Assembly: GCA_964418665.1 (NCBI GenBank)
Contig: CAYQLZ010000008.1
Coordinates: forward strand, 29,924 to 93,923
Length of the DNA stretch: 64,000 nucleotides
From: an uncultured Dehalococcoidia bacterium
GTDB lineage: Bacteria > Chloroflexota > Dehalococcoidia > Lucifugimonadales > GCA-2712585
Reading direction: 5' to 3'
Translations under genes and position numbers: made by a program
The notes under the pieces: generated by a model
Told to the model about the DNA's origin: nothing
Database searches by the model: none
The model's input: only the letters and a program-made list of their open reading frames with translations
Shown: piece by piece, positions 10,757 to 22,078 of the stretch
Position numbering within the stretch: position 1 is the stretch's first letter
How the letters are laid out: each line of letters begins with the position of its first letter

Positions 10757-11701
10757 CTACCCCTGCCGCACCAGCTTCTGCAGGCTCCGCATCTCCCGCG
10801 GCGGCTCCAGCGTACGACCCATCATCGTCCACGAGACCTCCCCCACGTACACGTCCCCGTGGGAATCCAGGCAGATCCCGTGCGGACTGACGAACTGTCC
10901 CGGGTCCTCGCCCCAGTACGCGTCCCCCAGCACCGCCAGCCGGTTCCCCGACGTGTCATACACCGTCACCCGGTGCCCGAAGTTCGGAGCGTCGCTGTAG
11001 TACGCGTCCGCAATCAACTCCGCCACGTACACGTTCCCGTCCGCTCCCACGCGGATGCCGGAGGGCTTCCAGATGTTGTTCCACATCGCCTCCAGCTTCC
11101 CGTTGGCGTTGAAAACCTGCACCCGGTGGCACTCCCTGTCCGCCACGTAGATATTGTCGTCCTTGTCCGTGGCCAGGTTGTGTGGAATCACGAACTGTCC
11201 CGGCCCGATGCCCGCCTCGCCCCACGACATTATGTGCTCGCCGTCGGAGCTGTACTTGTGAATCCTCGAATTGCCGTAACCGTCGGAGACGAACAGGTCC
11301 CCCGTCTCATTCGATACTGCAAGACCGGTGGGCAGGTTGAAAGCGTCGCCGCTGAACCTGGGCGAAGGCTTGTCCTTCGTACCCAGCGTCATCAGCAGCT
11401 CTCCGTCAGTCGAGAACTTCCTCACCGTGTGGTCCCCGTTGTCCACGCAGTACACCGCGTCGTCGGGCCCGATGCAGATGCCGTGGGCGTTTCCGAAGAT
11501 GTCCGCCCCCCACGAATTCAGATACTTCCCCTCCCTGTCGAACACCACCACCCCGTGTTCTCCCCGAGAGAAGGCGTACACGTTGTCCTTGCTATCCACC
11601 GCCACGTCCGGCGTCTCCTTCAAAGACATGCCGTCCGGCAAAGTGCCCCATCCCTCCGCCACCTCGAAGCTCAAACCGCCGCTGCCCACTACTGTAGTCA
11701 T
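10757..11701 (-). CDS. NHL-repeat beta-propeller protein
   Basis: Repeated blades of the form D..GN(I/V)YV(A/S)D. ATG at 11701 preceded by AGAGGAGG. The ORF-track start at 11746 is probably an over-extension. Confidence 0.7.
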   Translation of the reverse strand: MTTVVGSGGLSFEVAEGWGTLPDGMSLKETPDVAVDSKDNVYAFSRGEHGVVVFDREGKYLNSWGADIFGNAHGICIGPDDAVYCVDNGDHTVRKFSTDGELLMTLGTKDKPSPRFSGDAFNLPTGLAVSNETGDLFVSDGYGNSRIHKYSSDGEHIMSWGEAGIGPGQFVIPHNLATDKDDNIYVADRECHRVQVFNANGKLEAMWNNIWKPSGIRVGADGNVYVAELIADAYYSDAPNFGHRVTVYDTSGNRLAVLGDAYWGEDPGQFVSPHGICLDSHGDVYVGEVSWTMMGRTLEPPREMRSLQKLVRQG

Positions 11702-11767
11702 GGAGTGCCTCCTCTGGTGTATTCGGGCCAATGCTATGACCGGCACGGATTCTTGTCAAACCGTCCA

Positions 11768-12120
11768 CGCATTCCTGTTCCTGCGCAGGCAGGAACCCAC
11801 CCTCAACCCACGTCCCACCCTCCGCAATGGCTGCTCCCTCCCCCTCCCTGACCCCCGTAGGGGCGGTTCGTGAACCGCCCTCCCCCTCACCTCAACCATC
11901 CCGGTAGGGGCAGGTTTCAAACCTGCCCTCCCCCACACGTTATTCCAAACAAATCGAAGAATCTCGCCCCCTGTATGGAGTATGATACAGATAACCTCAG
12001 CCGAAGAGATTACACACAAAGCCCCCAACCAGGGAGAACCCCTCTTGCCTCTTCCCCCTTCATGGGGGAAGATTGAGCCTGTCCCGAGCTTGTCGAAGGG
12101 ATGGGGGTGATCCGGGTGGC
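11768..12120. repeat. mosaic cluster of hairpin repeats (families F, A, A, B)
   Basis: TTCCTGCgcagGCAGGAA (11774-11797). GTAGGGGCGGTTCGTGAACCGCCC (11857-11885). GTAGGGGCAGGTTTCAAACCTGCCC (11903-11933). CTTCCCCCttcatGGGGGAAGattgagcctgtcccgagcttgtcgaagggatgggggtgat (12050-12118). Confidence 0.85.
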
Positions 12121-12175
12121 GGGTCGAGAGGATCGGGAAGCTAACCCAACAGTCTCCATTAAAGGAGGTGACGAC

Positions 12176-12994
12176 ATGGATCTGGGACTCACAGACAAGA
12201 AAGCAATTGTGGCCGGCGGTGGCCGTGGCATCGGCAAAGCCATCGCCATGGAACTCGCCCGCGAGGGCGCCGACGTGGTCGTCGTTTCCCGCACCCAGGA
12301 TGAACTTGACCTTACCGCCCGCGAAATCGCCGACGAAACAGGAAGGCTCGTCTACCCCCTCTCCTTTGACGTCACCAACACCGAGCAGGTGAACTGGGGC
12401 GTCAAGCAGGCCGCCGCCGCCCTCGGCGGACTCCACATTCTCGTCAACAGCGCCGCCCTTCCCGGCGGCTCCCCGGAGGCCATCGGCCCCGTCGAAACCG
12501 TCGACGAAGAAATCCTCAAGTGGGACTTCGACGTCAAGTACGTGGGCGCTCTCCGGCTTGCCAAGGCCGCCATCCCCTTCCTCAAGGAAGCCGGCTGGGG
12601 ACGCATCATCAACATCAGCGGCGGCAACGCCCGCGCCGCCGGCAACCTCAGTGGCGGCGCCCGCAACGTCTCCCTAGTCCACTTCACCAAGTCCCTCTCC
12701 ATCCAGTTGGGACGATTCGGCATCACCGTCAACTGCATCCACCCGGGCACAACTCGCACCGAACGCACTCCCGTAATGTTCTCCGAACGAGGCGCGGAAC
12801 TCGGCGTCGACGCCGAAGAAGTGGAACGCAGAGACTTCGCCGAAGGTTCTCCCGCCGCCAACGCCATCGGCCGCATGGTCGACGCTCAGGAAGTCGGCTA
12901 CGTCGCCGCCTACCTCGCTTCCGACAAAGCCTGGGCCGTCACCGGCGAAGTCCTCGCCGCAGGCGGCGGCGTCGGCACCGCCGTCTACTACTAA
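12176..12994 (+). CDS. short-chain dehydrogenase/reductase (SDR) family oxidoreductase
   Basis: ATG at 12176 preceded by AAAGGAGG. Rossmann motif IVAGGGRGIGKAIA and an SDR-like length (272 aa). Confidence 0.85.
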   Translation: MDLGLTDKKAIVAGGGRGIGKAIAMELAREGADVVVVSRTQDELDLTAREIADETGRLVYPLSFDVTNTEQVNWGVKQAAAALGGLHILVNSAALPGGSPEAIGPVETVDEEILKWDFDVKYVGALRLAKAAIPFLKEAGWGRIINISGGNARAAGNLSGGARNVSLVHFTKSLSIQLGRFGITVNCIHPGTTRTERTPVMFSERGAELGVDAEEVERRDFAEGSPAANAIGRMVDAQEVGYVAAYLASDKAWAVTGEVLAAGGGVGTAVYY

Positions 12995-13009
12995 CCCCCA
13001 GCAGACCGC

Positions 13010-13440
13010 ATCGTCCGCCGTAGGGACACAAGCCTCCTCCATCTTGTTCCTGCGAAGGCAGGAACCCATATTCTCCCTCCGCCATTCTATGAGAAAGTTG
13101 GGATGGGTCGTTATTTCCCCTCTTGTTCCTCCGAAGGCAGACCTTTGAATTACCCTTTCGCGATCTCCTCAAAACTCTTCCCCCTTGATGGGTGTAGATT
13201 AGGATGAGGGTCATTGGGGTGACGGTTGGGCTGTTCGATTCGTTACGCAAAGGTCTCCAAAGGCAGCAACCCACCCCCCCTCCACCCAATCCTCCGTAGG
13301 GGCAATCCCTTGTGGTTGCCCTATTCCTTTCCTCACTCCCCCAACCGTCATTCCGAGCGCAGCGAAGCGAAGCCGAGGAATCTCCACGCCCGTAATCACC
13401 CGTCTCCCCAACGCCTCATTCCTCCTTCTTACACCCCCAT
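13010..13440. repeat. mosaic cluster of hairpin repeats (families F, F', B', G, A, D)
   Basis: cttgTTCCTGCgaagGCAGGAAccc (13043-13067). A degenerate F copy at 13122. A degenerate B copy at 13176-13228. gttacgcaaaggtctcc (13243-13259). GTAGGGGCAATCCCTTGTGGTTGCCC (13296-13324). gtcattccgagcgcagcgaagcgaagccgaggaatc (13347-13385). Confidence 0.8.
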
Positions 13441-13452
13441 CGGCCAGTCCAC

Positions 13453-13481
13453 TTGACAGCCCCAGAGAAAGACGCTATTCT
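13453..13481 (+). promoter_or_regulatory. candidate sigma70-type promoter at the left edge of the low-G+C insert
   Basis: TTGACA (13453-13458), 17-nt spacer, TATTCT (13476-13481). It lies about 210 nt upstream of the first cassette gene. An alternative is TTGCAA (13489) with CATACT (13512). Confidence 0.35.
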
Positions 13482-13499
13482 ATCGCGCTTGCAACTAAT

Positions 13500-13569
13500 G
13501 ATAGCCAGTATCATACTATAAGTAGCAAACTAACCGAATTACCCCCAAGAAACGATAGGACATATCATA
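13500..13569 (+). promoter_or_regulatory. direct repeats GATAGnnnnTATCATA (possible operator/iteron)
   Basis: GATAGCCAGTATCATA (13500-13515) and GATAGGACATATCATA (13554-13569), 54 nt apart. Partial copies are tGATATCAT (13579) and cGATAGaaattcg (13608). Confidence 0.35.
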
Positions 13570-13698
13570 AGGTTGGGTGATATCATTTCCACACTGCGAA
13601 CAAGGTCGATAGAAATTCGTCGCGATTGAAGTCTACGAACCGAAAACTGAAAGTCCATTGGCGAATTTGAGCTTGAACATCAATGCACGAGGTGAAAC

Positions 13699-13893
13699 AT
13701 GGAATTCTATAACGTGAAGACCAGGCAAAAGGTGGACATACCGGAAAGCGGCCTCAAGAAACGTACCATGGTGCAGAAGAACGGCAGGCAGACCTATGCC
13801 GTTACCGGCGAGGAAAACGGCACCCGGCTGGTTAGGTTTGTCAGCAAACAGCAGTATGATGCCTTGCAAGTGCCAGAGGTTGAAGGCTCCTAG
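13699..13893 (+). CDS. small protein resembling a Cys-less zinc-ribbon (DUF5679-like) protein
   Basis: 64 aa with SD GAGGTG upstream of the ATG. MEFYNVKTRQKV...MVQKNGRQTYAVTGEENGTRLVRFVS follows the Y-C-V-K-C-R-x-K...MKNGR-x-A-x-G-x-C-P-x-C-G-T-K-x-x-R-I pattern I recall for DUF5679. All four Cys ligands are replaced. Confidence 0.55.
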   Translation: MEFYNVKTRQKVDIPESGLKKRTMVQKNGRQTYAVTGEENGTRLVRFVSKQQYDALQVPEVEGS

Positions 13894-13902
13894 GGAGACG
13901 TT

Positions 13903-14427
13903 ATGTGGTGGTTCAAACGCGCGGTACTACGTCCGGTATTCGCTGAAGTCCAGGCGATGCACCCCTGGTTCCTGGACTACGACCAGTTGGAACCGGGGGT
14001 CAGGGATCTGGTGTGGTCACTAAACCAGACCGACCTTGTTGAGACCCTCACCTCCTGTGAAGGTCACCCGGAACTGCCCTATTGGTGGGAGACCACCGGT
14101 GGCACGGCTTACGTTCTCTATCTGGTGACCAATCCCGGCCGGTGGGACCGCGTGTTGGACCGGTTGCGGCAGATGGCCCAGGACTGGAAGGATGTCCAAT
14201 TGATAGTGCGCGGCGAGCGGGAGCAATGGATGGGGTTTCAAGTCAGTCATGGCCCCACGGAATCTGACCGAAATGCCTTGGACGAGGCCATTCGCCAGAC
14301 TAGCGAACTGCTCAAAGAACACATAGACCATGATGTTGTTGCCCTGACCTCAGCCCTGCGTGAGCAGGAGAATCAAGGCCGCCAGAATGGTCCTCCACGT
14401 CTCGTCACAGGACTGGGGCAAGACTGA
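13903..14427 (+). CDS. hypothetical protein (174 aa), no family recognised
   Basis: SD GGGAG is 6 nt upstream of the ATG. There is a conserved-looking block LEPGVRDLVWSLNQTDLVETLTSCEGHPELPYWW. The gene sits between the two small paralogues. Confidence 0.55.
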   Translation: MWWFKRAVLRPVFAEVQAMHPWFLDYDQLEPGVRDLVWSLNQTDLVETLTSCEGHPELPYWWETTGGTAYVLYLVTNPGRWDRVLDRLRQMAQDWKDVQLIVRGEREQWMGFQVSHGPTESDRNALDEAIRQTSELLKEHIDHDVVALTSALREQENQGRQNGPPRLVTGLGQD

Positions 14428-14459
14428 GAGAAAGACCAACAGATCGACGGAGGTGTCCC

Positions 14460-14645
14460 TTGGAAGGACTAACTGCTTACTGCTTGCCACTGCGCAGGAG
14501 ATGCGAAATTCTGGAACCCCGTGTTATAACCATGAAGAATGGACGTAAGGCGGTACGGGGCAAGGCCAAAGATGCTCCCCAGTACACCGTTTTCCGAATC
14601 TTGAGCGACGCCGAAGCGAAGCAGCTGGAGTCCACCCCCGGCTAA
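14460..14645 (+). CDS. second DUF5679-like small protein (paralogue of 13699..13893)
   Basis: TTG start preceded by GGAGGT. TAYCLPLRRRCEILEPRVITMKNGRKAVRGKAKDAPQYTVFRILS keeps the MKNGR-x-A-x-x-G...(F/V)R(I/F)(L/V)S core. The second Cys pair is lost. Confidence 0.5.
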   Translation: MEGLTAYCLPLRRRCEILEPRVITMKNGRKAVRGKAKDAPQYTVFRILSDAEAKQLESTPG

Positions 14646-14712
14646 CAAAACAAGATCCCGGAGTACGCCGAATCCCACCATTCGCCCAGCTCCCCACCCA
14701 TAACCGCACCCC

Positions 14713-14936
14713 CCGTAATGTTCGCCGCACGAGGCGCGGATATGTGCATCGAAGCTGAAAAAGTGGGACGGTGCGACTTTGCCTCGGGTTCTCCCTCCGC
14801 CTTCGCCAGCCTCCGCATAGTCCACGCTCAGGAAGTAGGCTACGTCGCAGCCTACCTCGCCTCCGACAAAGCCTGGGCCGTCACCGGTGAAGTCCTCGCC
14901 GCAGGCAGCAGGGTCGGCAACGCCATCTACTACTAA
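14713..14936 (+). pseudogene. orphan duplicate of the 3' end of the SDR gene (12771..12994)
   Basis: 224 nt collinear with no indels against 12771-12994, at a constant offset of 1942. The last ~110 nt look about 90% identical by eye. Both copies end in ...YLASDKAWAVTGEVLAAG...YY-TAA. Confidence 0.85.
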
Positions 14937-14991
14937 TCCATGCACACTCCCCCTCGGCACAATTCGCGTAGGGGCGATTCGCGAACCGTCC

Positions 14992-15543
14992 TCAGGGTTT
15001 GAGGCCCTCTACAACTGCCTCGGGATTCTCTCGGTCCAATTCCCACTTCAGCGGGTTTTCTACAATATATTCCCTTGCCTGACTCAACTCATTCTCGTCA
15101 CGGATAACCCGCTCGTAATAATTCCGCTGCCACAGACGCCGGGAGGGAGAACCGCAAGAAAGATTGATCCGCTTGGTGCTTACAGTCTTGAACGCGCCAA
15201 TCAGACGCCCCAGAGGCTTCCGGCAGTTTTTCGTAGGGGCGGTTCGCGAACCGCCCTGACTTGGGATTGTGTCTAACACGATGATGCCATGCAAATGATT
15301 CGGCATTACTACGTATTCGTCTAACGAGACGTGAGGATATCGTATCCCCAGCCATTCCCAATATGTTGCAACTATTCGCCCCTCATCGTTCAACTCCATT
15401 TTCCCATCTATAATTTCGCCGAAACGGAGACTTCGGTCCCTAACTACTACGGTTACGAAATACGCTCCCGCGCGGGTGTAGTCATATCCTCTCAATCTGA
15501 TAGACCTGCGCCGATGAATGTCGGGATTGTAGCGTTGGTTCAA
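14992..15543 (-). CDS. REP-associated tyrosine transposase (IS200/IS605 Y1 family, RAYT)
   Basis: RLRGYDYTRAGAYFVTVV, the HUH motif MPNHLHGIIVL, and the catalytic Tyr context LWQRNYYERVIRDE. Likely TTG start at 15543. The ORF-track extension to 15753 runs through a REP and is rejected. Confidence 0.8.
   Translation of the reverse strand: MNQRYNPDIHRRRSIRLRGYDYTRAGAYFVTVVVRDRSLRFGEIIDGKMELNDEGRIVATYWEWLGIRYPHVSLDEYVVMPNHLHGIIVLDTIPSQGGSRTAPTKNCRKPLGRLIGAFKTVSTKRINLSCGSPSRRLWQRNYYERVIRDENELSQAREYIVENPLKWELDRENPEAVVEGLKP
15233..15258. repeat. REP palindrome (family A) embedded inside the RAYT coding sequence
   Basis: GTAGGGGCGGTTCGCGAACCGCCCTG, read on the minus strand, encodes ...QGGSRTAPT... 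in the loop between the HUH and Tyr motifs. Confidence 0.8.
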
Positions 15544-15619
15544 TGGTGCATCTCTAGCAAAATATGTACCGTTCCACGTAGGGGCGGTTCGCGAACCGCC
15601 CCTACAAAGGACGACGACC

Positions 15620-15868
<249 letters not shown>

Positions 15869-15963
15869 TCAATTGTCCCACTACAAGCGCAATTATTGAA
15901 GCCCGGTTCGTATCCTCAATCCAACCACGATGGTTGCCTTTGAGTAGGTTTCGGTGCTGATGG

Positions 15964-16395
15964 TCAAGATACCCTCAGTACGATGTCAGTAACGATACTG
16001 ACCAACAAGCTTCCAATCGCTATCCCAACCGCCATTTTGGCTAGTCGGTGTGTCTGGCTTTGTCTTGCATCGTCGTTTCGTAGCTTGTGAAGTGCGCGTG
16101 CGCCCTGATTGGACATTCCTTCATGCACTTCAACGAAGAAGCACCGGTCTTCCCTATCTTGTGTAAGCACTTCCTTCAGGCGAGGCTTTAAATCTGGATC
16201 AATTCCTGTGCTCCAAATCCCCTCGGAGCATTCTGCTGCCCACGGTGCAGGCAAGCTGAGACTCTCACGCTCATCCTTGTTCCAAGATAACGGCCTCTTC
16301 TCAATATCAGCGGCAATCATGGCGAATTCAGATAGAAATTGACAATTCTTGCAGCAGTGTTTCATTGATGTCGTCCTAAGTGCCTCCCCCCTCAC
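15964..16395 (-). CDS. hypothetical tail-anchored membrane protein with N-terminal CCxxC
   Basis: 143-aa ORF. GTG at 16395 is preceded by GGAGGTGGGG (alternative ATG at 16365). It has MKHCCKNCQF near the N-terminus and a single C-terminal TM (MAVGIAIGSLLVSIVTDIVL). G+C is lower than in the flanks. Confidence 0.45.
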   Translation of the reverse strand: MRGEALRTTSMKHCCKNCQFLSEFAMIAADIEKRPLSWNKDERESLSLPAPWAAECSEGIWSTGIDPDLKPRLKEVLTQDREDRCFFVEVHEGMSNQGARALHKLRNDDARQSQTHRLAKMAVGIAIGSLLVSIVTDIVLRVS

Positions 16396-16408
16396 ATCCC
16401 CACCTCCC

Positions 16409-16512
16409 TCAACCGCAGTTCATCCCCCTCACCACATCCAAATTATCTCCCGTCCACAGAGTCCGGCTGGAAAAATCAGGAGCGGTCCTTTGCCTTCAAT
16501 CTCTATTTCTCC
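16409..16512 (-). pseudogene. frameshifted N-terminal fragment of a DNA methyltransferase (paralogue of 20642..22078)
   Basis: The minus strand reads EIEIEGKGP, then a frameshift, then DFSSRTLWTGDNLDVVRGMN, then a stop. The intact gene has TIEVEAVGEPNFASRTLWTGDNLDVLRGMN. The DPPF motif and everything after it are missing. Confidence 0.7.
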
Positions 16513-16548
16513 GCATATCCCCCGTCCCCAGCCTCCGGCTGGCACGAA

Positions 16549-16764
16549 TCAGACCGGCACGCTCACATGGTACACCACGTCTGCGTCCTTCGGCGCATCC
16601 ACCCCATCGTCCCTCAACGTTTCGAGATACAACCCTATGGCTTCTTTGACGTTTTACAGCGTCTCGGGAATCGACTCGCCCTGAGAGTAACAGCCGGGCA
16701 GCGCGGGCACCTGCACCCAGAAACCGCCTTCCTCCGCTTTGTTTATAGCCACTGAGTATTCCAT
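16549..16764 (-). pseudogene. HicB-family antitoxin-like gene interrupted by an in-frame TAA
   Basis: MEYSVAINKAEEGGFWVQVPALPGCYSQGESIPETL-TAA-NVKEAIGLYLETLRDDGVDAPKDADVVYHVSVPV. The stop is at 16654-16656. No hicA was seen next to it. Confidence 0.65.
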
Positions 16765-16983
16765 CTCATGTACTCATTGCAGGGGACTACGGGCAGCCGA
16801 AGCATCTCTGCAAATCGGCGTGATAGCAAGAATTTGATACATGGACAACACTGATGCAGGCAGCATAGCCGTTTCGTCACAAGATTCGCCAGCCACTCCC
16901 CCCACCGTCATTCCGGCCCCCTTTCTCCGTACTCCCGCGCTCAGTCAAAGTCCCCCTCCCCCTTCCCTTCCCTACCATCAACA

Positions 16984-18069
16984 ATGTACCCTCACAACAT
17001 GTGGCGCCTCACCGAACACCACCTGCAGTCCATCGCCACCGGCGCCGCCATCCTCGGCACCGGCGGCGGCGGTAACCCCTACGTCGGCATGCTCCGCGCC
17101 CGCGAGGCCCTTCGACGCTACAACCCCGTCGACGTGCTCACCCCCGAGGAACTGGGCGAAGACGCCCGCGTCGTCTGCGTCGGAGGCATCGGCGCCCCCA
17201 CCGTCGGCATCGAAAAGATGCGCGACATCCAGGCTTACCACGCCCTCCGCGCCATCGAAGACTTCGTCGGCGAAAAGGCAACCGCCCTCATCTCCAACGA
17301 AATGGGCGGCAGCAACTCCCTCGAACCCATCATCCCCGCCTCCATCGCCGGACTCCCCATCGTCGACGCCGACGCCATGGGCCGCGCATTCCCCGAACTC
17401 CAGATGAAGACCTTTTTCATCTATGGCGTCCCCTGGTATCCCCTCGCCCTCGCCGACGAAAAGGGCAATACCAGTATCTTCCCCAAGGCCGTCACCGCCA
17501 CCTGGATGGAGCGCATGGCCCGCGCCGTCACCATCCAGATGGGCTGCATCGCCTGCTACGCCCTCCACCCCATGTCCGCGGATGAAATCCGACGCACCGC
17601 CGTCCCCCACACCCTCTCTCTCGCCCTGAAATTGGGCAACGCCGTCAAGCAAGCCCAAATGAAGCACGAAGACCCCATCGAAGCCATCATGTCCGTATAC
17701 CCAGGCAAGGTCCTCTTCCAGGGCAAAATCGTCGACCTGGAACGTCGCACCACCACCGGTTTCGCCCGCGGCAAAGTCGTCATCGACGGCCTCGGCGAAT
17801 TCGCCCCCGGCCTCATGTCCATCGAGTTCCAGAACGAAAACCTTATCGCCTCCATCGACGGTCAGGTCGTCTGCCTCGTCCCTGACCTCATCTGCGTCGT
17901 CGACTCCGAACGCGGCGAACCCATCACCACCGAGCTCCTCCGCTACGGCTTCCGCGTCACCGTCCTCGGCTTCCCCGCCCACCCTCTGCTCAAGTCCCCG
18001 CAGGCCCTGGAAGTGGTCGGCCCCAGAGCCTTCGGCTACCCCCACCAATACGTCCCACTGGAGGTGTGA
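16984..18069 (+). CDS. DUF917-family protein (hydantoinase-associated)
   Basis: 361 aa. The N-terminal AAILGTGGGGNPY motif and the pairing with a hydantoinase/oxoprolinase gene are typical of DUF917. Confidence 0.75.
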   Translation: MYPHNMWRLTEHHLQSIATGAAILGTGGGGNPYVGMLRAREALRRYNPVDVLTPEELGEDARVVCVGGIGAPTVGIEKMRDIQAYHALRAIEDFVGEKATALISNEMGGSNSLEPIIPASIAGLPIVDADAMGRAFPELQMKTFFIYGVPWYPLALADEKGNTSIFPKAVTATWMERMARAVTIQMGCIACYALHPMSADEIRRTAVPHTLSLALKLGNAVKQAQMKHEDPIEAIMSVYPGKVLFQGKIVDLERRTTTGFARGKVVIDGLGEFAPGLMSIEFQNENLIASIDGQVVCLVPDLICVVDSERGEPITTELLRYGFRVTVLGFPAHPLLKSPQALEVVGPRAFGYPHQYVPLEV

Positions 18070-20641: not shown

Positions 20642-22078
20642 TCACATCCCCATCTCCCGCAGCCGCGCCACTAGGTACTCCTGCGGCCTATCCCCCTTCA
20701 GCGAATTGCACGCCCCGCACAGAAGCTGAAGGTTGTCCAGGTGGTCCGTACCACCCCTGCTCTGCGGCACAATATGGTCGATGGTGAAGTTGCGGAATGG
20801 GAACATCACCCTGCAACCCGCGCACAGCCCTTCCTGCTTGCCGAACAACTCGTGTTTCCTCTTGCGATAAGGAATGGGAACGTCAATATCCGTCCGCCTG
20901 GGTATGTCCGTCCGTGACGTCACGTAGCCCGCATGAAACAGGCTCCCCATCGACTGGCGTAGCCGGTCGTTCACCTGCCTGATGGCGTTGGGCGAAATGT
21001 CGATACCCACCCACTGACGCTCCAGCCTGTCGGCGGCGACGCACGTGGTAGCGCAGCCGCAGAAGGGGTCAAGCACCATGTCCCCTTCGTTCGACGAAGC
21101 CTTGATGATCCGCTCCATCAAGGCCAACGGCTTCTGCGTGGGATATCCCGTCCGCTCACTTCCAGCAGCAATCGGTATGTCGTTCCACGTATCGCTAACG
21201 GGAATGCCTGGTTGTTCGTCGAGATACCGTTTGAACCGTGGGACGCCCTTCCCACCGCGAGGAACTACAATCAAGCCCTTCCGGTCCGCTTCTTCCATCC
21301 GTTCCCTTGTCCATCTCCAAACCCTTGTCACACCCTTGAACTCATACGTCAAATTCGGCCTGTCGGGATTTGGATTAAGCAGACTGGTCAACTGATACCT
21401 GCGCCCTGTCTCTTCTTCAATCTGCCGATATTGCTCATGCGCACGGGGATTCTCTACAAATATCGAGTTCCAAGTTGTCTTCCCATCACTCCCGTAAGCA
21501 AGAATCACATCATGATTGGAAGCAAAGCGGGTAAAGGCCAAGCCTTTGGGGTGGGAACGCCTCCATATGACCTCATTCCGAAAATTTCTTGCGCCAAATA
21601 TGCTATCCATCAATAGCTTATGATAATGACTGGCCGTTGGGTCGCAGTGCAGGTAGATTGACCCTGTAGGCTTCAACACTCGCTGCATCTCCAGCAACCG
21701 AACTGCCATCATGCAGAGATACGATTGCGTACTCTTGCCGTGGGTAGTTCTTGCCGTCTCAATCACTCTGTACATGGCGGGATGCACATCGGCAACCAGG
21801 CCCATCCATGCTACGTCCAGGTCCGACAGCGTCCACGTGTCCTTGAAAGCGGCGCCCGCAGCCTTGCTCCCGATAGGCGCAGCGTAGTTGCGGTTGGAGT
21901 TGAAAGGTGGGTCCAGGTAGATGAGATCGGCGCAGTCGCTGTTCATCCCCCGCAGCACATCCAGATTGTCCCCAGTCCACAACGTCCTGCTGGCAAAATT
22001 CGGTTCACCCACGGCCTCAACCTCTATCGTGGTCTTGCCAACACTTGTGTCATCGCCCCCAATGGACGAGCAACGCAA
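20642..22078 (-). CDS. DNA methyltransferase (N6-A/N4-C, beta-class order) fused to a C-terminal HNH nuclease domain
   Basis: Motif IV LIYLDPPFNS is near the N-terminus and motif I MVLDPFCGCATTCVAA near residue 340. The C-terminal ~70 aa read CAGC...FTIDHIVPQSRGGTDHLDNLQLLCGACNSLKGDR (HNH). The start codon is uncertain. Confidence 0.85.
   Translation of the reverse strand: MRCSSIGGDDTSVGKTTIEVEAVGEPNFASRTLWTGDNLDVLRGMNSDCADLIYLDPPFNSNRNYAAPIGSKAAGAAFKDTWTLSDLDVAWMGLVADVHPAMYRVIETARTTHGKSTQSYLCMMAVRLLEMQRVLKPTGSIYLHCDPTASHYHKLLMDSIFGARNFRNEVIWRRSHPKGLAFTRFASNHDVILAYGSDGKTTWNSIFVENPRAHEQYRQIEEETGRRYQLTSLLNPNPDRPNLTYEFKGVTRVWRWTRERMEEADRKGLIVVPRGGKGVPRFKRYLDEQPGIPVSDTWNDIPIAAGSERTGYPTQKPLALMERIIKASSNEGDMVLDPFCGCATTCVAADRLERQWVGIDISPNAIRQVNDRLRQSMGSLFHAGYVTSRTDIPRRTDIDVPIPYRKRKHELFGKQEGLCAGCRVMFPFRNFTIDHIVPQSRGGTDHLDNLQLLCGACNSLKGDRPQEYLVARLREMGM

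What the first reader, a model, noticed from the sequence alone, without database searches (positions are those of the whole stretch)
12771..14936. 224-bp direct duplication of the SDR gene 3' end brackets a 1.7-kb lower-G+C insertion
Positions 12771-12994 (the last 74 codons plus stop of the SDR gene) and 14713-14936 are collinear without indels at a constant offset of 1942. The distal ~110 nt are nearly identical and the proximal part is more diverged. Both copies end ...YLASDKAWAVTGEVLAAG..YY-TAA. The second copy has no 5' part. This is the footprint left by integrative elements that insert into the 3' end of a gene and bring a replacement end with them. No integrase or recombinase is present between the repeats. 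The insert is only repeats, an AT-rich control region and three small genes.
Basis: seen in the sequence. Interest (0 to 1): 0.7.

Follow-up and report, generated by a model that had tools for sequence, protein, structure and literature searches.

The report
Displaced gene tail beside inserted cassette
A soil-type Dehalococcoidia bacterium carries a decaying second copy of the last ~230 bases of a dehydrogenase gene just behind a small inserted three-gene block, a footprint of DNA having been spliced in at the gene's end while handing the gene a fresh tail; it is a real and tidy example of a known kind of scar, not a new mobile element.

Summary
The repeat is real. 12770-12997 and 14712-14939 match without gaps at offset 1942 (84% identity, E 2e-66), and it is the only large repeat in the 64-kb window. 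Copy A is the working 3' end of an intact SDR gene. Copy B is a 5'-truncated pseudogene fragment.

Six related Dehalococcoidia genomes have the empty site, with the SDR stop followed within 70-200 nt by the S-Me-THD gene. About 4 kb (12995-16980) is therefore inserted here, more than the 1.7 kb flagged.

The three small genes are a conserved, single-copy, patchily distributed operon found in 54 Dehalococcoidia genomes. One relative (L002) carries it at this same site without any SDR duplication. No integrase is present in the 64 kb.

Copy B keeps the REP element seen after the SDR stop in three of the six empty-site relatives. It reads best as the original gene tail, displaced when DNA from a different version of this variable spot recombined in with homology on one side only. 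This resembles rhs C-terminal displacement.

Similar scars recur nearby and around the same operon elsewhere.

Verdict: observation confirmed, interpretation partly supported, moderate interest.

The parts
12176..12994 (+). Intact short-chain dehydrogenase/reductase (SDR) gene, 272 aa
   Evidence: Pfam adh_short_C2 1.6e-40 and adh_short 1e-36. Full-length orthologues at 89-94% aa identity in 8 Dehalococcoidia genomes.
12770..12997 (+). Copy A of the repeat: the functional last 74 codons plus stop of the SDR gene
   Evidence: Only 3 differences from copy B are unique to A when compared with 8 orthologues.
12998..13450 (.). Array of several kinds of short palindromic intergenic repeats (REP/MITE-like), lower G+C
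   Evidence: Repeat families D3-D8 have copies upstream of the SDR gene. Further copies lie elsewhere in the window and in other genomes. G+C is 0.52-0.58.
13453..13698 (+). Promoter-like site (TTGACA-17-TATTCT, 13453-13481) and AT-rich leader of the three-gene operon
   Evidence: The same 'cTTGACAgccc' box is visible upstream of the operon in L002 and L122. G+C drops to 0.42.
13699..13893 (+). ORF1, 64 aa, first gene of the conserved operon, function unknown
   Evidence: 77-94% aa identity at a fixed position before ORF2 in most of 37 loci. No Pfam, NCBIfam or PDB match.
13903..14427 (+). ORF2, 174 aa, core gene of the operon, function unknown (invariant ...VETL[ST]SCEGHP... motif)
   Evidence: 141 homologues, none named and none with a Pfam domain. 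54 genome loci, one per genome. Alignment A2. Distant relatives share the motif and have no informative Pfam domain. The AlphaFold model is poor, pLDDT 54.
14460..14645 (+). ORF3, 61 aa (TTG start here, ATG in relatives), a cysteine-less relative of DUF5679
   Evidence: Pfam DUF5679 E 0.005, below the cut-off. Conserved after ORF2 in most loci.
14646..14676 (+). First 31 nt of a non-coding element that runs about 110 nt after ORF3 in most genomes; it is cut short here
   Evidence: Comparison of the sequence after ORF3 in 27 loci. Homology of the window to every other locus ends at or before 14687.
14677..14711 (.). Junction or filler with no match anywhere; its right part may be the badly decayed start of copy B
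   Evidence: Unique in the window and in all fetched loci. tblastn similarity to SDR begins at 14685.
14712..14939 (+). Copy B: 5'-truncated pseudogene fragment of the SDR 3' end, read as the displaced original tail
   Evidence: 22 substitutions are unique to B, at codon positions 11:5:6, many at sites invariant in 8 orthologues. No 5' part. B is closest to copy A (84%) and next closest to L003 (80%).
14968..14991 (+). REP palindrome 31 nt after the stop codon of copy B
   Evidence: The same REP follows the SDR stop by 17 nt in L006, L007 and L017.
14992..15753 (-). REP-associated tyrosine transposase (RAYT) gene with REP copies at 15233 and 15578 inside the open frame
   Evidence: NCBIfam REP_Tyr_transpos 3.8e-17, 62.5 bits, below the cut-off of 80. 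REP positions. Orthologue in L004.
15620..16395 (-). DUF433 gene (15620-15838) and an unknown 143-aa gene X (15964-16395): further accessory genes of the same inserted tract
   Evidence: Pfam DUF433 7.6e-21. In L171, L004 and L007 these genes lie in other positions relative to the hydantoinase genes.
16410..16764 (-). Fragment of the 5' end of the methylase-HNH gene (16410-16505) and a HicB-like antitoxin pseudogene (16549-16764, in-frame TAA)
   Evidence: BLAST to L171. The 63-nt repeat 16414-16476 versus 21937-21999. Translations.
16984..18069 (+). S-Me-THD-like gene: the gene that directly follows the SDR gene in six relatives, so it marks the right edge of the inserted tract
   Evidence: Pfam S-Me-THD_N and S-Me-THD_C. 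Synteny.

Best explanation
The space between the SDR gene and the S-Me-THD gene is a hypervariable spot in these Dehalococcoidia genomes. Different lineages carry different accessory DNA there.

The window is a recombinant of two such versions. One resembles L002: SDR, then REP array, then the three-gene operon. The other is inferred: SDR, then REP, then RAYT, DUF433, gene X and a HicB-like gene.

DNA of one version entered a cell carrying the other. It was integrated by ordinary RecA-type homologous recombination on one side only. The other end was joined illegitimately, at about 14677-14711. A single crossover of a small circle carrying an SDR 3' piece would give the same result.

Because the incoming DNA carried an SDR 3' end, the gene stayed intact (copy A). 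The other SDR tail was pushed 1.9 kb downstream together with its own REP. There it is no longer translated and is decaying (copy B).

The nearly identical 83-nt core of the repeat is best explained by later gene conversion between the two copies.

What is shown:
- the repeat;
- the empty sites;
- the neutral decay of copy B;
- the absence of an integrase gene in the window;
- the L002 arrangement;
- similar scars elsewhere.

What is inferred:
- the order and direction of the events;
- one-sided homologous plus illegitimate joining, as opposed to a circular intermediate;
- the gene conversion.
For: - **Repeat.** It is real and the only large repeat in the 64 kb.
- **Empty sites.** In L001, L004, L005, L006, L007 and L017 the SDR stop is followed within about 70-200 nt by the S-Me-THD start.
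- **L002.** It has SDR, operon and S-Me-THD with no second SDR copy. Relative to L002, window 14677-16956 (2280 nt, beginning with copy B) replaces 102 nt.
- **Flanks.** Copy A's flank 'TAAccc' matches L002 and L003. Copy B's 'TAAtcc...REP' matches the 'TAAtgc...REP' of L006, L007 and L017.
- **Decay of copy B.** It is neutral: 22 B-specific changes against 3 A-specific, with no third-position bias.
- **No recombinase.** None was found among the window ORFs tested, apart from the RAYT. The surroundings are housekeeping genes.
- **The cargo is not a defined element.**
  - It is a single-copy operon in 54 genomes.
  - It was not detected in the genomes of five of the closest SDR relatives.
  - In L001's genome it lies about 100 kb away from the SDR locus.
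  - Its homology fades gradually at both ends.
- **Other junctions in the same mosaic carry gene-end fragments.**
  - A methylase 5' fragment lies at 16410-16505.
  - In L007 and L005 a vapBC pair is inserted after the hydantoinase stop and followed by a ~60-nt copy of that gene's tail. That fragment resembles relatives' native tails.
- **The operon elsewhere.** It is bracketed by a 369-nt duplicate (92% identity) of a TPR/redoxin gene tail in L096. That repeat also ends within 10 nt of the stop codon, and the operon there is in the opposite orientation. Thirteen control loci gave no bracketing repeat of 200 nt or more.
- **Published precedent.**
  - Displacement of T6SS effector genes by homology-facilitated illegitimate recombination (PMC5361080).
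Against: - The second parental arrangement (an intact SDR gene followed directly by REP, RAYT, DUF433 and X) was not found in the 8 close relatives or in JGI metagenomes. In L004 and L007 the RAYT/DUF433 genes lie after the hydantoinase genes instead.
- No clear microhomology can be read at the junction, because the left end of copy B is too decayed.
- The contrast between the strongly decayed proximal part and the 95%-identical core is also exactly what a site-specific att core or repeated excision and reintegration would give.
- Natural transformation, or any other DNA uptake route, is not documented for this lineage.
- The recurrence of tail duplicates around one particular operon, and its frequent position next to tRNA 3' ends (17 of 54 loci), hints at something more specific than random illegitimate joining.
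Confidence: 0.5

Rival explanations
1. This is site-specific integration. A small integrase-less element consisting of REP array, operon and an attP that contains an SDR 3' piece was inserted into the SDR 3' end by a recombinase encoded elsewhere. That would make it a cis-mobilizable element. Copy A's distal part would be the element's replacement tail. Copy B would be the element's decayed left att arm plus the native tail, and the 83-nt near-identical stretch would be the att core.
For: - The divergence pattern fits well. The proximal part of B is neutral junk, while the core has only 4 synonymous differences.
- Empty sites exist.
- The same operon is bracketed by a tRNA-Gly 3' half-copy in L092 and by a gene-tail duplicate in L096.
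- A tRNA lies within 1.5 kb of the operon in 17 of 54 loci. At least 9 tRNA identities are involved, and the nearest tRNA's 3' end faces the operon in 14 of the 17.
- The operon's distribution is patchy and does not follow SDR similarity: ORF2 is 84% identical to L002 but 69% to L001, while SDR is 93% and 94%.
Against: - There is no integrase in the insert or among the ORFs of 200 aa or more in the 64 kb.
- L002 has the operon at the same site without an attR-like copy. The sister genome L097 lacks the tRNA half-copy that L092 has.
- The bracketing repeats are different sequences, and the operon's orientation relative to them differs between the window and L096. A single att/recombinase system is therefore not indicated.
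- The conserved block has no sharp ends.
- The repeats are only 84% identical overall. The last 30 nt of copy B carry 4 B-specific changes (3 codons altered), which a freshly displaced native tail should not have.
Confidence: 0.2
2. This is an in-situ segmental duplication followed by deletions. A tandem duplication within this genome copied a segment starting inside the SDR gene, and most of the second copy was later lost or overwritten, leaving only the 228-nt piece.
For: - Copies A and B are each other's closest relatives and share derived bases absent from all 8 orthologues, for example CCCGTAATG and GGTTCTCCC.
- The region shows other signs of block reshuffling: S-Me-THD/hydantoinase and RAYT/DUF433 are in swapped order compared with L004 and L007, and there is a methylase 5' fragment.
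Against: - No relative has two SDR copies, full or partial.
- Homology between the copies ends at the stop codon, and the two downstream flanks are unrelated. Each flank resembles a different group of relatives, so a very precise deletion would be required.
- The same stop-codon boundary is seen independently in L096 and L007.
Confidence: 0.15
3. The rearrangement was mediated by the RAYT and its REP elements. The neighbouring REP-associated tyrosine transposase cut at REP hairpins and moved or joined DNA segments, creating the duplicate.
For: The only four copies of this REP in the 64 kb lie at 11857, 14968, 15233 and 15578, so they surround the SDR gene, the insert and copy B. The RAYT gene abuts the REP that follows copy B.
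Against: - The junction that creates the duplicate (about 14677-14711) has no REP.
- To my knowledge RAYTs and their IS200/IS605 relatives are not known to make target duplications of hundreds of bases.
- The parallel cases in L096 and L007 have no RAYT next to them in the ORF lists or sequences examined.
Confidence: 0.05
4. This is an assembly artefact: two strain variants of the SDR 3' end were joined in one contig.
For: The window comes from a metagenome-type assembly. The encoded proteins are on record from a single contig of about 100 kb, and no reads are available to check it.
Against: - Copy B has 22 private, non-synonymous-biased substitutions and cannot encode a working tail. It is therefore not a co-existing functional strain variant.
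- Both copies have unique, well-defined flanks.
- Comparable structures occur in independent long-read chromosomes (L096, L007, L005).
Confidence: 0.03

Closest known systems
C-terminal (3'-end) displacement at rhs loci, with the analogous orphan tips of cdiA (Jackson et al. 2009, PMC2935791)
   Same: An intact gene is followed by a silent, 5'-truncated fragment of its own 3' part. Incoming DNA carrying a stretch of the gene plus new downstream DNA takes over, and the old tail is shunted downstream. No integrase is involved. The proposed route is RecA-type recombination with a circular intermediate.
   Different: - Here the gene is an ordinary metabolic SDR, not a polymorphic toxin.
- The new and old tails encode the same protein end, so nothing diversifies in the protein.
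- What changes is the DNA downstream of the gene.
- There is one displaced tail, not an array.
Homology-facilitated illegitimate recombination, as invoked for displacement of T6SS effector-immunity modules in Vibrio cholerae (Kirchberger et al. 2017, PMC5361080)
   Same: A one-sided homologous anchor plus an illegitimate join inserts foreign DNA and keeps part of the old locus, including the 3' end of the old gene, downstream.
   Different: The mechanism has been demonstrated in naturally transformable bacteria, and nothing is known about DNA uptake in this lineage. The junction here is too decayed to show the 3-10 nt microhomology expected; that figure is from my own knowledge of the primary papers, which I could not open.
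Integrase-mediated genomic islands and cis-mobilizable elements inserted in the 3' ends of tRNA or protein genes (attL/attR direct repeats with a replacement gene end)
   Same: A direct repeat made of the target gene's 3' end, an intact target gene, empty sites in relatives, lower G+C in the insert, and a near-identical core inside the repeat.
   Different: There is no integrase in the insert or in the 64 kb. The 'element' has no defined ends. The cargo operon sits at the same site without the repeat in L002. The repeats around the same operon in other genomes are unrelated sequences.
REPtron (a RAYT gene surrounded by its REP elements)
   Same: A RAYT-like gene with clustered copies of one REP palindrome lies immediately next to copy B.
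   Different: It is a neighbour, not the cause. No REP lies at the junction that made the duplicate, and the RAYT scores below the NCBIfam cut-off.

Membership tests
Integrase-mediated integrative element (attL/attR) | A site-specific recombinase gene within or next to the element | tested here: not met
   No Pfam or NCBIfam recombinase in ORF1-3 or in any ORF of 200 aa or more in the 64 kb. The only DNA-transaction enzyme nearby is a RAYT.
Integrase-mediated integrative element (attL/attR) | Direct repeats at both ends that contain an identical core at which crossover occurs | tested here: inconclusive
   The repeat is 84% identical overall. Its best stretch, 12882-12964, is 95% identical with 4 synonymous differences and no long perfect core. 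This could be an old att core or a gene-conversion tract.
Integrase-mediated integrative element (attL/attR) | Empty site in relatives, with the target gene followed directly by the far flank | tested here: met
   Six relatives have SDR followed directly by S-Me-THD. However, the far flank of the 1.9-kb unit itself (SDR followed directly by REP-RAYT) was not found.
Integrase-mediated integrative element (attL/attR) | The same element with the same ends and att recurs at the same kind of target in other genomes | tested here: not met
   Among 54 loci with the operon, none but the window has an SDR fragment. L002 has the operon at the SDR site without a repeat. The bracketing repeats in L096 and L092 are other sequences, and the ends of homology are not sharp.
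3'-end (C-terminal) displacement by homologous or one-sided recombination | An intact gene followed downstream by a 5'-truncated, silent copy of its own 3' part, with foreign DNA between them | tested here: met
3'-end (C-terminal) displacement by homologous or one-sided recombination | The displaced fragment keeps the older downstream context, and the attached tail comes with new downstream DNA | tested here: met
   Copy B is followed by the REP seen after SDR in L006, L007 and L017. Copy A is followed by DNA absent from the six relatives with empty sites. The same polarity is seen for the hydantoinase tail in L007.
3'-end (C-terminal) displacement by homologous or one-sided recombination | A donor haplotype or circular intermediate carrying a gene piece plus the cargo | not testable with these tools
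   This needs reads or closely related strains. No closer relatives were found.
Ordinary tandem gene duplication in decay | Relatives with two (full-length) copies in tandem | tested here: not met
   All 8 close relatives have one SDR copy.
SDR family (the duplicated gene) | Match to the adh_short / adh_short_C2 profiles above the cut-off, over the full length | tested here: met
   139.6 and 126.7 bits against cut-offs of 27 and 26.6, covering residues 8-266.
DUF5679 (ORF3) | Pfam score above the gathering cut-off; two CxxC pairs (the CxxC pairs are from my own recollection of the family) | tested here: not met
   17.4 bits against a cut-off of 27. The cysteine positions are not conserved in ORF3 (sequence).
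REP-associated tyrosine transposase (neighbouring gene) | NCBIfam REP_Tyr_transpos above the cut-off; HUH and Tyr motifs; REPs nearby | tested here: inconclusive
   62.5 bits against a cut-off of 80. The motifs NHLHG and RNYYE can be read in the translation. Four REPs lie within 4 kb. A REP-derived stretch sits inside the coding sequence.

The most novel reading that the evidence does not exclude
The conserved ORF1-ORF2-ORF3 operon is itself a small mobile module. It moves between the 3' ends of tRNA and protein genes without a recognisable integrase. It would do so either through an unknown recombinase activity of the uncharacterised ORF2 family (invariant SCEGHP motif) or through self-made direct repeats that let RecA excise and reinsert it as a circle. 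The SDR duplicate would then be one of its attachment scars.
Probability: 0.12. Interest if true: 0.75.

Novelty: new member of a known kind. Interest (0 to 1): 0.35.

Why it matters
This locus gives a clean, datable example of how accessory DNA gets into a housekeeping stretch of a genome from an uncultured Dehalococcoidia lineage without any visible mobile-element machinery. The incoming DNA repairs the gene it lands in, and the old tail stays behind as a marker.

Comparable scars occur at the hydantoinase gene in L005 and L007, and around the same three-gene operon in L096 and L092. Leftover gene tails could therefore serve as a practical signal for mapping recombination-driven gain of small cassettes in metagenome-assembled genomes.

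The work also flags a widespread operon of unknown function. It is single-copy, patchily distributed and often sits next to tRNA genes.

Tried and rejected
- **Exact-protein look-ups.** Look-ups of ORF2 and SDR to find sister strains returned nothing on record.
- **JGI metagenome scan with SDR.** No relative was more than 77% identical, so no further haplotypes were found.
- **Viral contigs.** The operon is absent from IMG/VR, so a phage origin was dropped.
- **ORF2 function.**
  - Pfam, NCBIfam, PHROGs and PADLOC gave nothing significant.
  - PDB sequence searches were negative.
  - The AlphaFold model was too poor (pLDDT 54) to justify a fold search.
  - Distant relatives from the 1.8-billion-protein search carry no informative Pfam domain.
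- **RNA genes.** Rfam and tRNA scans of the window were empty.
- **ORF cluster 4.** It first looked like a conserved RAYT next to the operon but proved to be the antisense shadow of ORF3.
- **L161.** Its bracketing repeats are REP/MITE arrays, not gene tails. L122's repeat is a remnant of what I read as an IS transposase gene.
- **Common motif.** I looked for one at the left ends of the four tail duplicates and saw none (my reading).
- **Filler.** The 35-nt filler matches nothing.
- **Literature.** Prudhomme et al. 2002 could not be opened. A literature search for DUF5679 was uninformative.

Full report
**1. The observation**

The repeat is there as described. The repeat finder reports 12770-12997 and 14712-14939: 228 nt, 84% identity, no gaps, spacing 1942. 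MAFFT and BLAST agree (E 2e-66). A self-comparison of the 64-kb window shows no other repeat longer than 78 nt.

Copy A is the last 74 codons plus stop of an intact SDR gene (12176-12994; adh_short_C2 1.6e-40). Copy B has no 5' part. tblastn of the SDR protein against 12995-17000 finds only residues 190-272.

Similarity is uneven:
- 77% in the proximal 112 nt and 92% in the distal 113 nt (p=0.0017);
- only four differences, all synonymous, in the 83-nt stretch 12882-12964;
- five differences in the last 30 nt.

The lower-G+C tract does not stop at copy B but runs to about 16950. The left edge of copy B is fuzzy and probably lies 14-25 nt further left.

**2. What surrounds it**

The organism is a member of the Dehalococcoidia. 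Eight genomes carry SDR orthologues at 89-94% amino-acid identity in conserved synteny.

The window is a housekeeping region: mfd, proBA, recO, a biotin carboxylase, lysA, holB, cmk, dnaG, rpoD, mutL, mutS, ftsY and rnc. It has no integrase or recombinase among its ORFs of 200 aa or more.

The layout from the SDR gene to the next conserved gene is as follows.

| Coordinates | Feature |
|---|---|
| 12176-12994 | SDR gene, with copy A at its 3' end |
| 12998-13450 | Array of short palindromic repeats |
| 13453-13698 | TTGACA-17-TATTCT promoter-like site and AT-rich leader |
| 13699-14645 | ORF1 (64 aa), ORF2 (174 aa), ORF3 (61 aa) |
| 14712-14939 | Copy B |
| 14968-14991 | REP palindrome |
| 14992-15753 | RAYT-like gene, minus strand |
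| 15620-15838 | DUF433 gene |
| 15964-16395 | Unknown 143-aa gene X |
| 16410-16505 | Fragment of a methylase gene's 5' end |
| 16549-16764 | HicB-like pseudogene with an in-frame stop |
| 16984-18069 | S-Me-THD gene |

**3. Empty site**

In L001, L004, L005, L006, L007 and L017 the SDR stop codon is followed within about 70-200 nt by the S-Me-THD start codon. The whole tract 12995-16980 (about 4 kb) is therefore extra DNA in the window.

L003 carries a different insert at the same place, a reverse-transcriptase gene. The spot is a hot spot for variable DNA.

**4. The three small genes are not private cargo**

ORF1-ORF2-ORF3 is a conserved operon found once in each of 54 Dehalococcoidia genomes. 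ORF2 is 63-84% identical across them, and gene spacing is constant.

Its flanks are mostly not syntenic, and its homology fades gradually at both ends. It was not detected in the genomes of five of the closest SDR relatives. In L001's genome it lies about 100 kb from the SDR locus. It is absent from viral contigs.

Most important, L002 has the operon exactly between SDR and S-Me-THD with no second SDR copy. Compared with L002, the window has 2280 nt (14677-16956) in place of 102 nt. This segment starts with copy B, and it cuts short a non-coding element that follows ORF3 in most genomes.

**5. Which copy is the old one**

Copies A and B are each other's closest relatives. Of their 35 differences, 22 are unique to B, 3 are unique to A, and the other 10 cannot be assigned to either copy. 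The B-specific changes show no third-position bias and hit sites that are invariant in all orthologues. B has therefore drifted as a pseudogene.

The flanks point the same way. Copy A is followed by 'TAAccc', as in L002 and L003. Copy B is followed by 'TAAtcc' and, 31 nt later, the REP palindrome. That matches the arrangement after the SDR stop in L006, L007 and L017. B thus looks like a tail that once belonged to an SDR gene followed by that REP.

**6. Mechanism**

The simplest reading is that two alternative versions of this hot spot recombined. One version is SDR-operon. The other is SDR-REP-RAYT and the genes after it. The join was homologous on one side and illegitimate on the other (about 14677-14711). 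A single crossover of a circle carrying an SDR piece would give the same structure.

The gene stays intact because the incoming or resident DNA supplies a tail, and the other tail is left downstream.

This is the logic proposed for two published cases: rhs C-terminal displacement through homologous recombination with circular intermediates (PMC2935791), and displacement of T6SS effector genes by homology-facilitated illegitimate recombination (PMC5361080).

I attribute the 95%-identical core to later gene conversion between the copies. It still contains one A-specific and two B-specific changes.

**7. Why the integrative-element reading is not dismissed**

The divergence pattern is also what an att site would show: junk left arm, conserved core.
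- In L096 the same operon is bracketed by a 369-nt duplicate (92% identity) of the tail of a TPR/redoxin gene. That repeat again ends within 10 nt of the stop codon.
- In L092 the operon is bracketed by a 49-nt copy of the 3' half of tRNA-Gly.
- Thirteen control loci gave no bracketing repeat of 200 nt or more.
- A tRNA gene lies within 1.5 kb of the operon in 17 of 54 loci. At least nine tRNA identities are involved, and the nearest tRNA's 3' end faces the operon in 14 of the 17.

Against a single att/integrase system:
- the repeats are unrelated sequences;
- the operon's orientation relative to them differs;
- L097, the sister genome of L092, lacks the tRNA half-copy;
- L002 lacks the SDR copy;
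- no recombinase gene is seen.

**8. The scar is a local habit**

In L007 and L005 a vapBC pair sits right after the hydantoinase stop codon and is followed by a ~60-nt copy of that gene's tail. The fragment resembles the native tails of relatives, whereas the attached tail is distinct. L171 shows the same fragment.

Within the window, a 63-96-nt copy of the 5' end of the methylase-HNH gene marks another junction. Gene-end fragments thus mark block junctions throughout this mosaic. That fits recombination between haplotypes better than one dedicated element.

**9. Rivals**

- In-situ tandem duplication followed by precise deletions is possible. No relative with two copies supports it, and the unrelated downstream flanks argue against it.
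- RAYT/REP action is unlikely, because the junction has no REP.
- Misassembly is unlikely, given B's private non-functional changes and the parallel cases in independent long-read chromosomes.

**10. Verdict**

This is a real insertion scar with a displaced gene tail. It was most likely made without a dedicated integrase, in a composite 4-kb island rather than a 1.7-kb element.

It is a new example of a known kind of footprint, and I score interest at 0.35. The residual novel possibility is that the conserved operon is itself an integrase-less mobile module. I give that about 12%.

Noticed in passing
window 13699-14676; loci L081-L170: ORF1-ORF2-ORF3 is a conserved operon of unknown function, found once in each of 54 Dehalococcoidia genomes but not detected in several close relatives. 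ORF2 has an invariant VETL[ST]SCEGHP motif and distant relatives without any informative Pfam domain. ORF3, and by my own reading of its sequence ORF1, look like cysteine-less relatives of DUF5679.
   Followed up: partly
loci L118-L170: A tRNA gene lies within 1.5 kb of the operon in 17 of 54 loci, and at least 9 tRNA identities are involved. In 14 of the 17 the nearest tRNA's 3' end faces the operon. From general knowledge of tRNA gene density I would expect about 5% by chance.
   Followed up: partly
after ORF3 in L081, L087, L093, L100, L102, L108, L110 and others; window 14646-14676: A conserved non-coding element of about 110 nt follows ORF3 in most genomes. It begins with a GGATT...AATCC hairpin. 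In the window it is cut after the first 31 nt. Rfam found nothing in the window, and the full-length copies were not tested.
   Followed up: no
L096 4176-4544 and 6961-7327: A 369-nt direct repeat (92% identity) of the 3' end of a minus-strand TPR/redoxin-like gene brackets a 187-aa gene plus the operon. The left copy is a frameshifted fragment, and the repeat ends within 10 nt of the stop codon.
   Followed up: partly
L092 3595-3669 and 6881-6929: tRNA-Gly(TCC) and a 49-nt copy of its 3' half bracket a GTPase gene (which I read as CobW-like) plus the operon, with no integrase between them. The sister genome L097 has the same genes but no half-copy.
   Followed up: partly
L007 11587-12425; L005 about 11620-12470; L171 9226-9271: A vapBC toxin-antitoxin pair is inserted directly after the hydantoinase stop codon and followed by a ~60-nt copy of that gene's 3' end. 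The window, L001, L002, L004 and L017 have the empty site.
   Followed up: partly
window 16410-16505 and 21937-22027: A short copy of the 5' end of the N6_N4 methylase-HNH gene (20642-22078, minus strand) sits next to the HicB-like pseudogene, 5.5 kb from the intact gene. Compared with L171 and L007, the blocks S-Me-THD/hydantoinase and RAYT/DUF433/X are in swapped order.
   Followed up: partly
window 16549-16764 (-): A HicB-like antitoxin gene carries an in-frame TAA where L171 has Glu (ETL*NVKEAI against ETLENVKEAI), so it is a pseudogene.
   Followed up: yes
window 14992-15753 (-), REPs at 15233-15260 and 15578-15605: The RAYT open reading frame contains its own REP palindrome in frame (GGSRTAPT), between what I read as the HUH and Tyr motifs. 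The L004 orthologue has a related stretch (GDSRIART) at the same place. All four copies of this REP in the 64 kb lie within 11857-15605.
   Followed up: partly
L003 8911-10422 (-): In L003 a 503-aa reverse-transcriptase gene (RVT_1), possibly defence-type, occupies the position downstream of the SDR gene. The S-Me-THD and hydantoinase genes are missing there, so SDR lies next to the M16 peptidase block.
   Followed up: no
L122 6950-7086 and 9035-9172: The operon is bracketed by a 138-nt repeat (83% identity). By my own reading of the translated sequence it derives from the C-terminal part of a decayed ISAs1-like transposase gene.
   Followed up: no
L126 13510-13586 and 11921-11955: tRNA-Val(TAC) has a 35-nt copy of its 3' end (1 mismatch) 1.6 kb away, downstream of the operon. 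This is another att-like scar in the neighbourhood.
   Followed up: no
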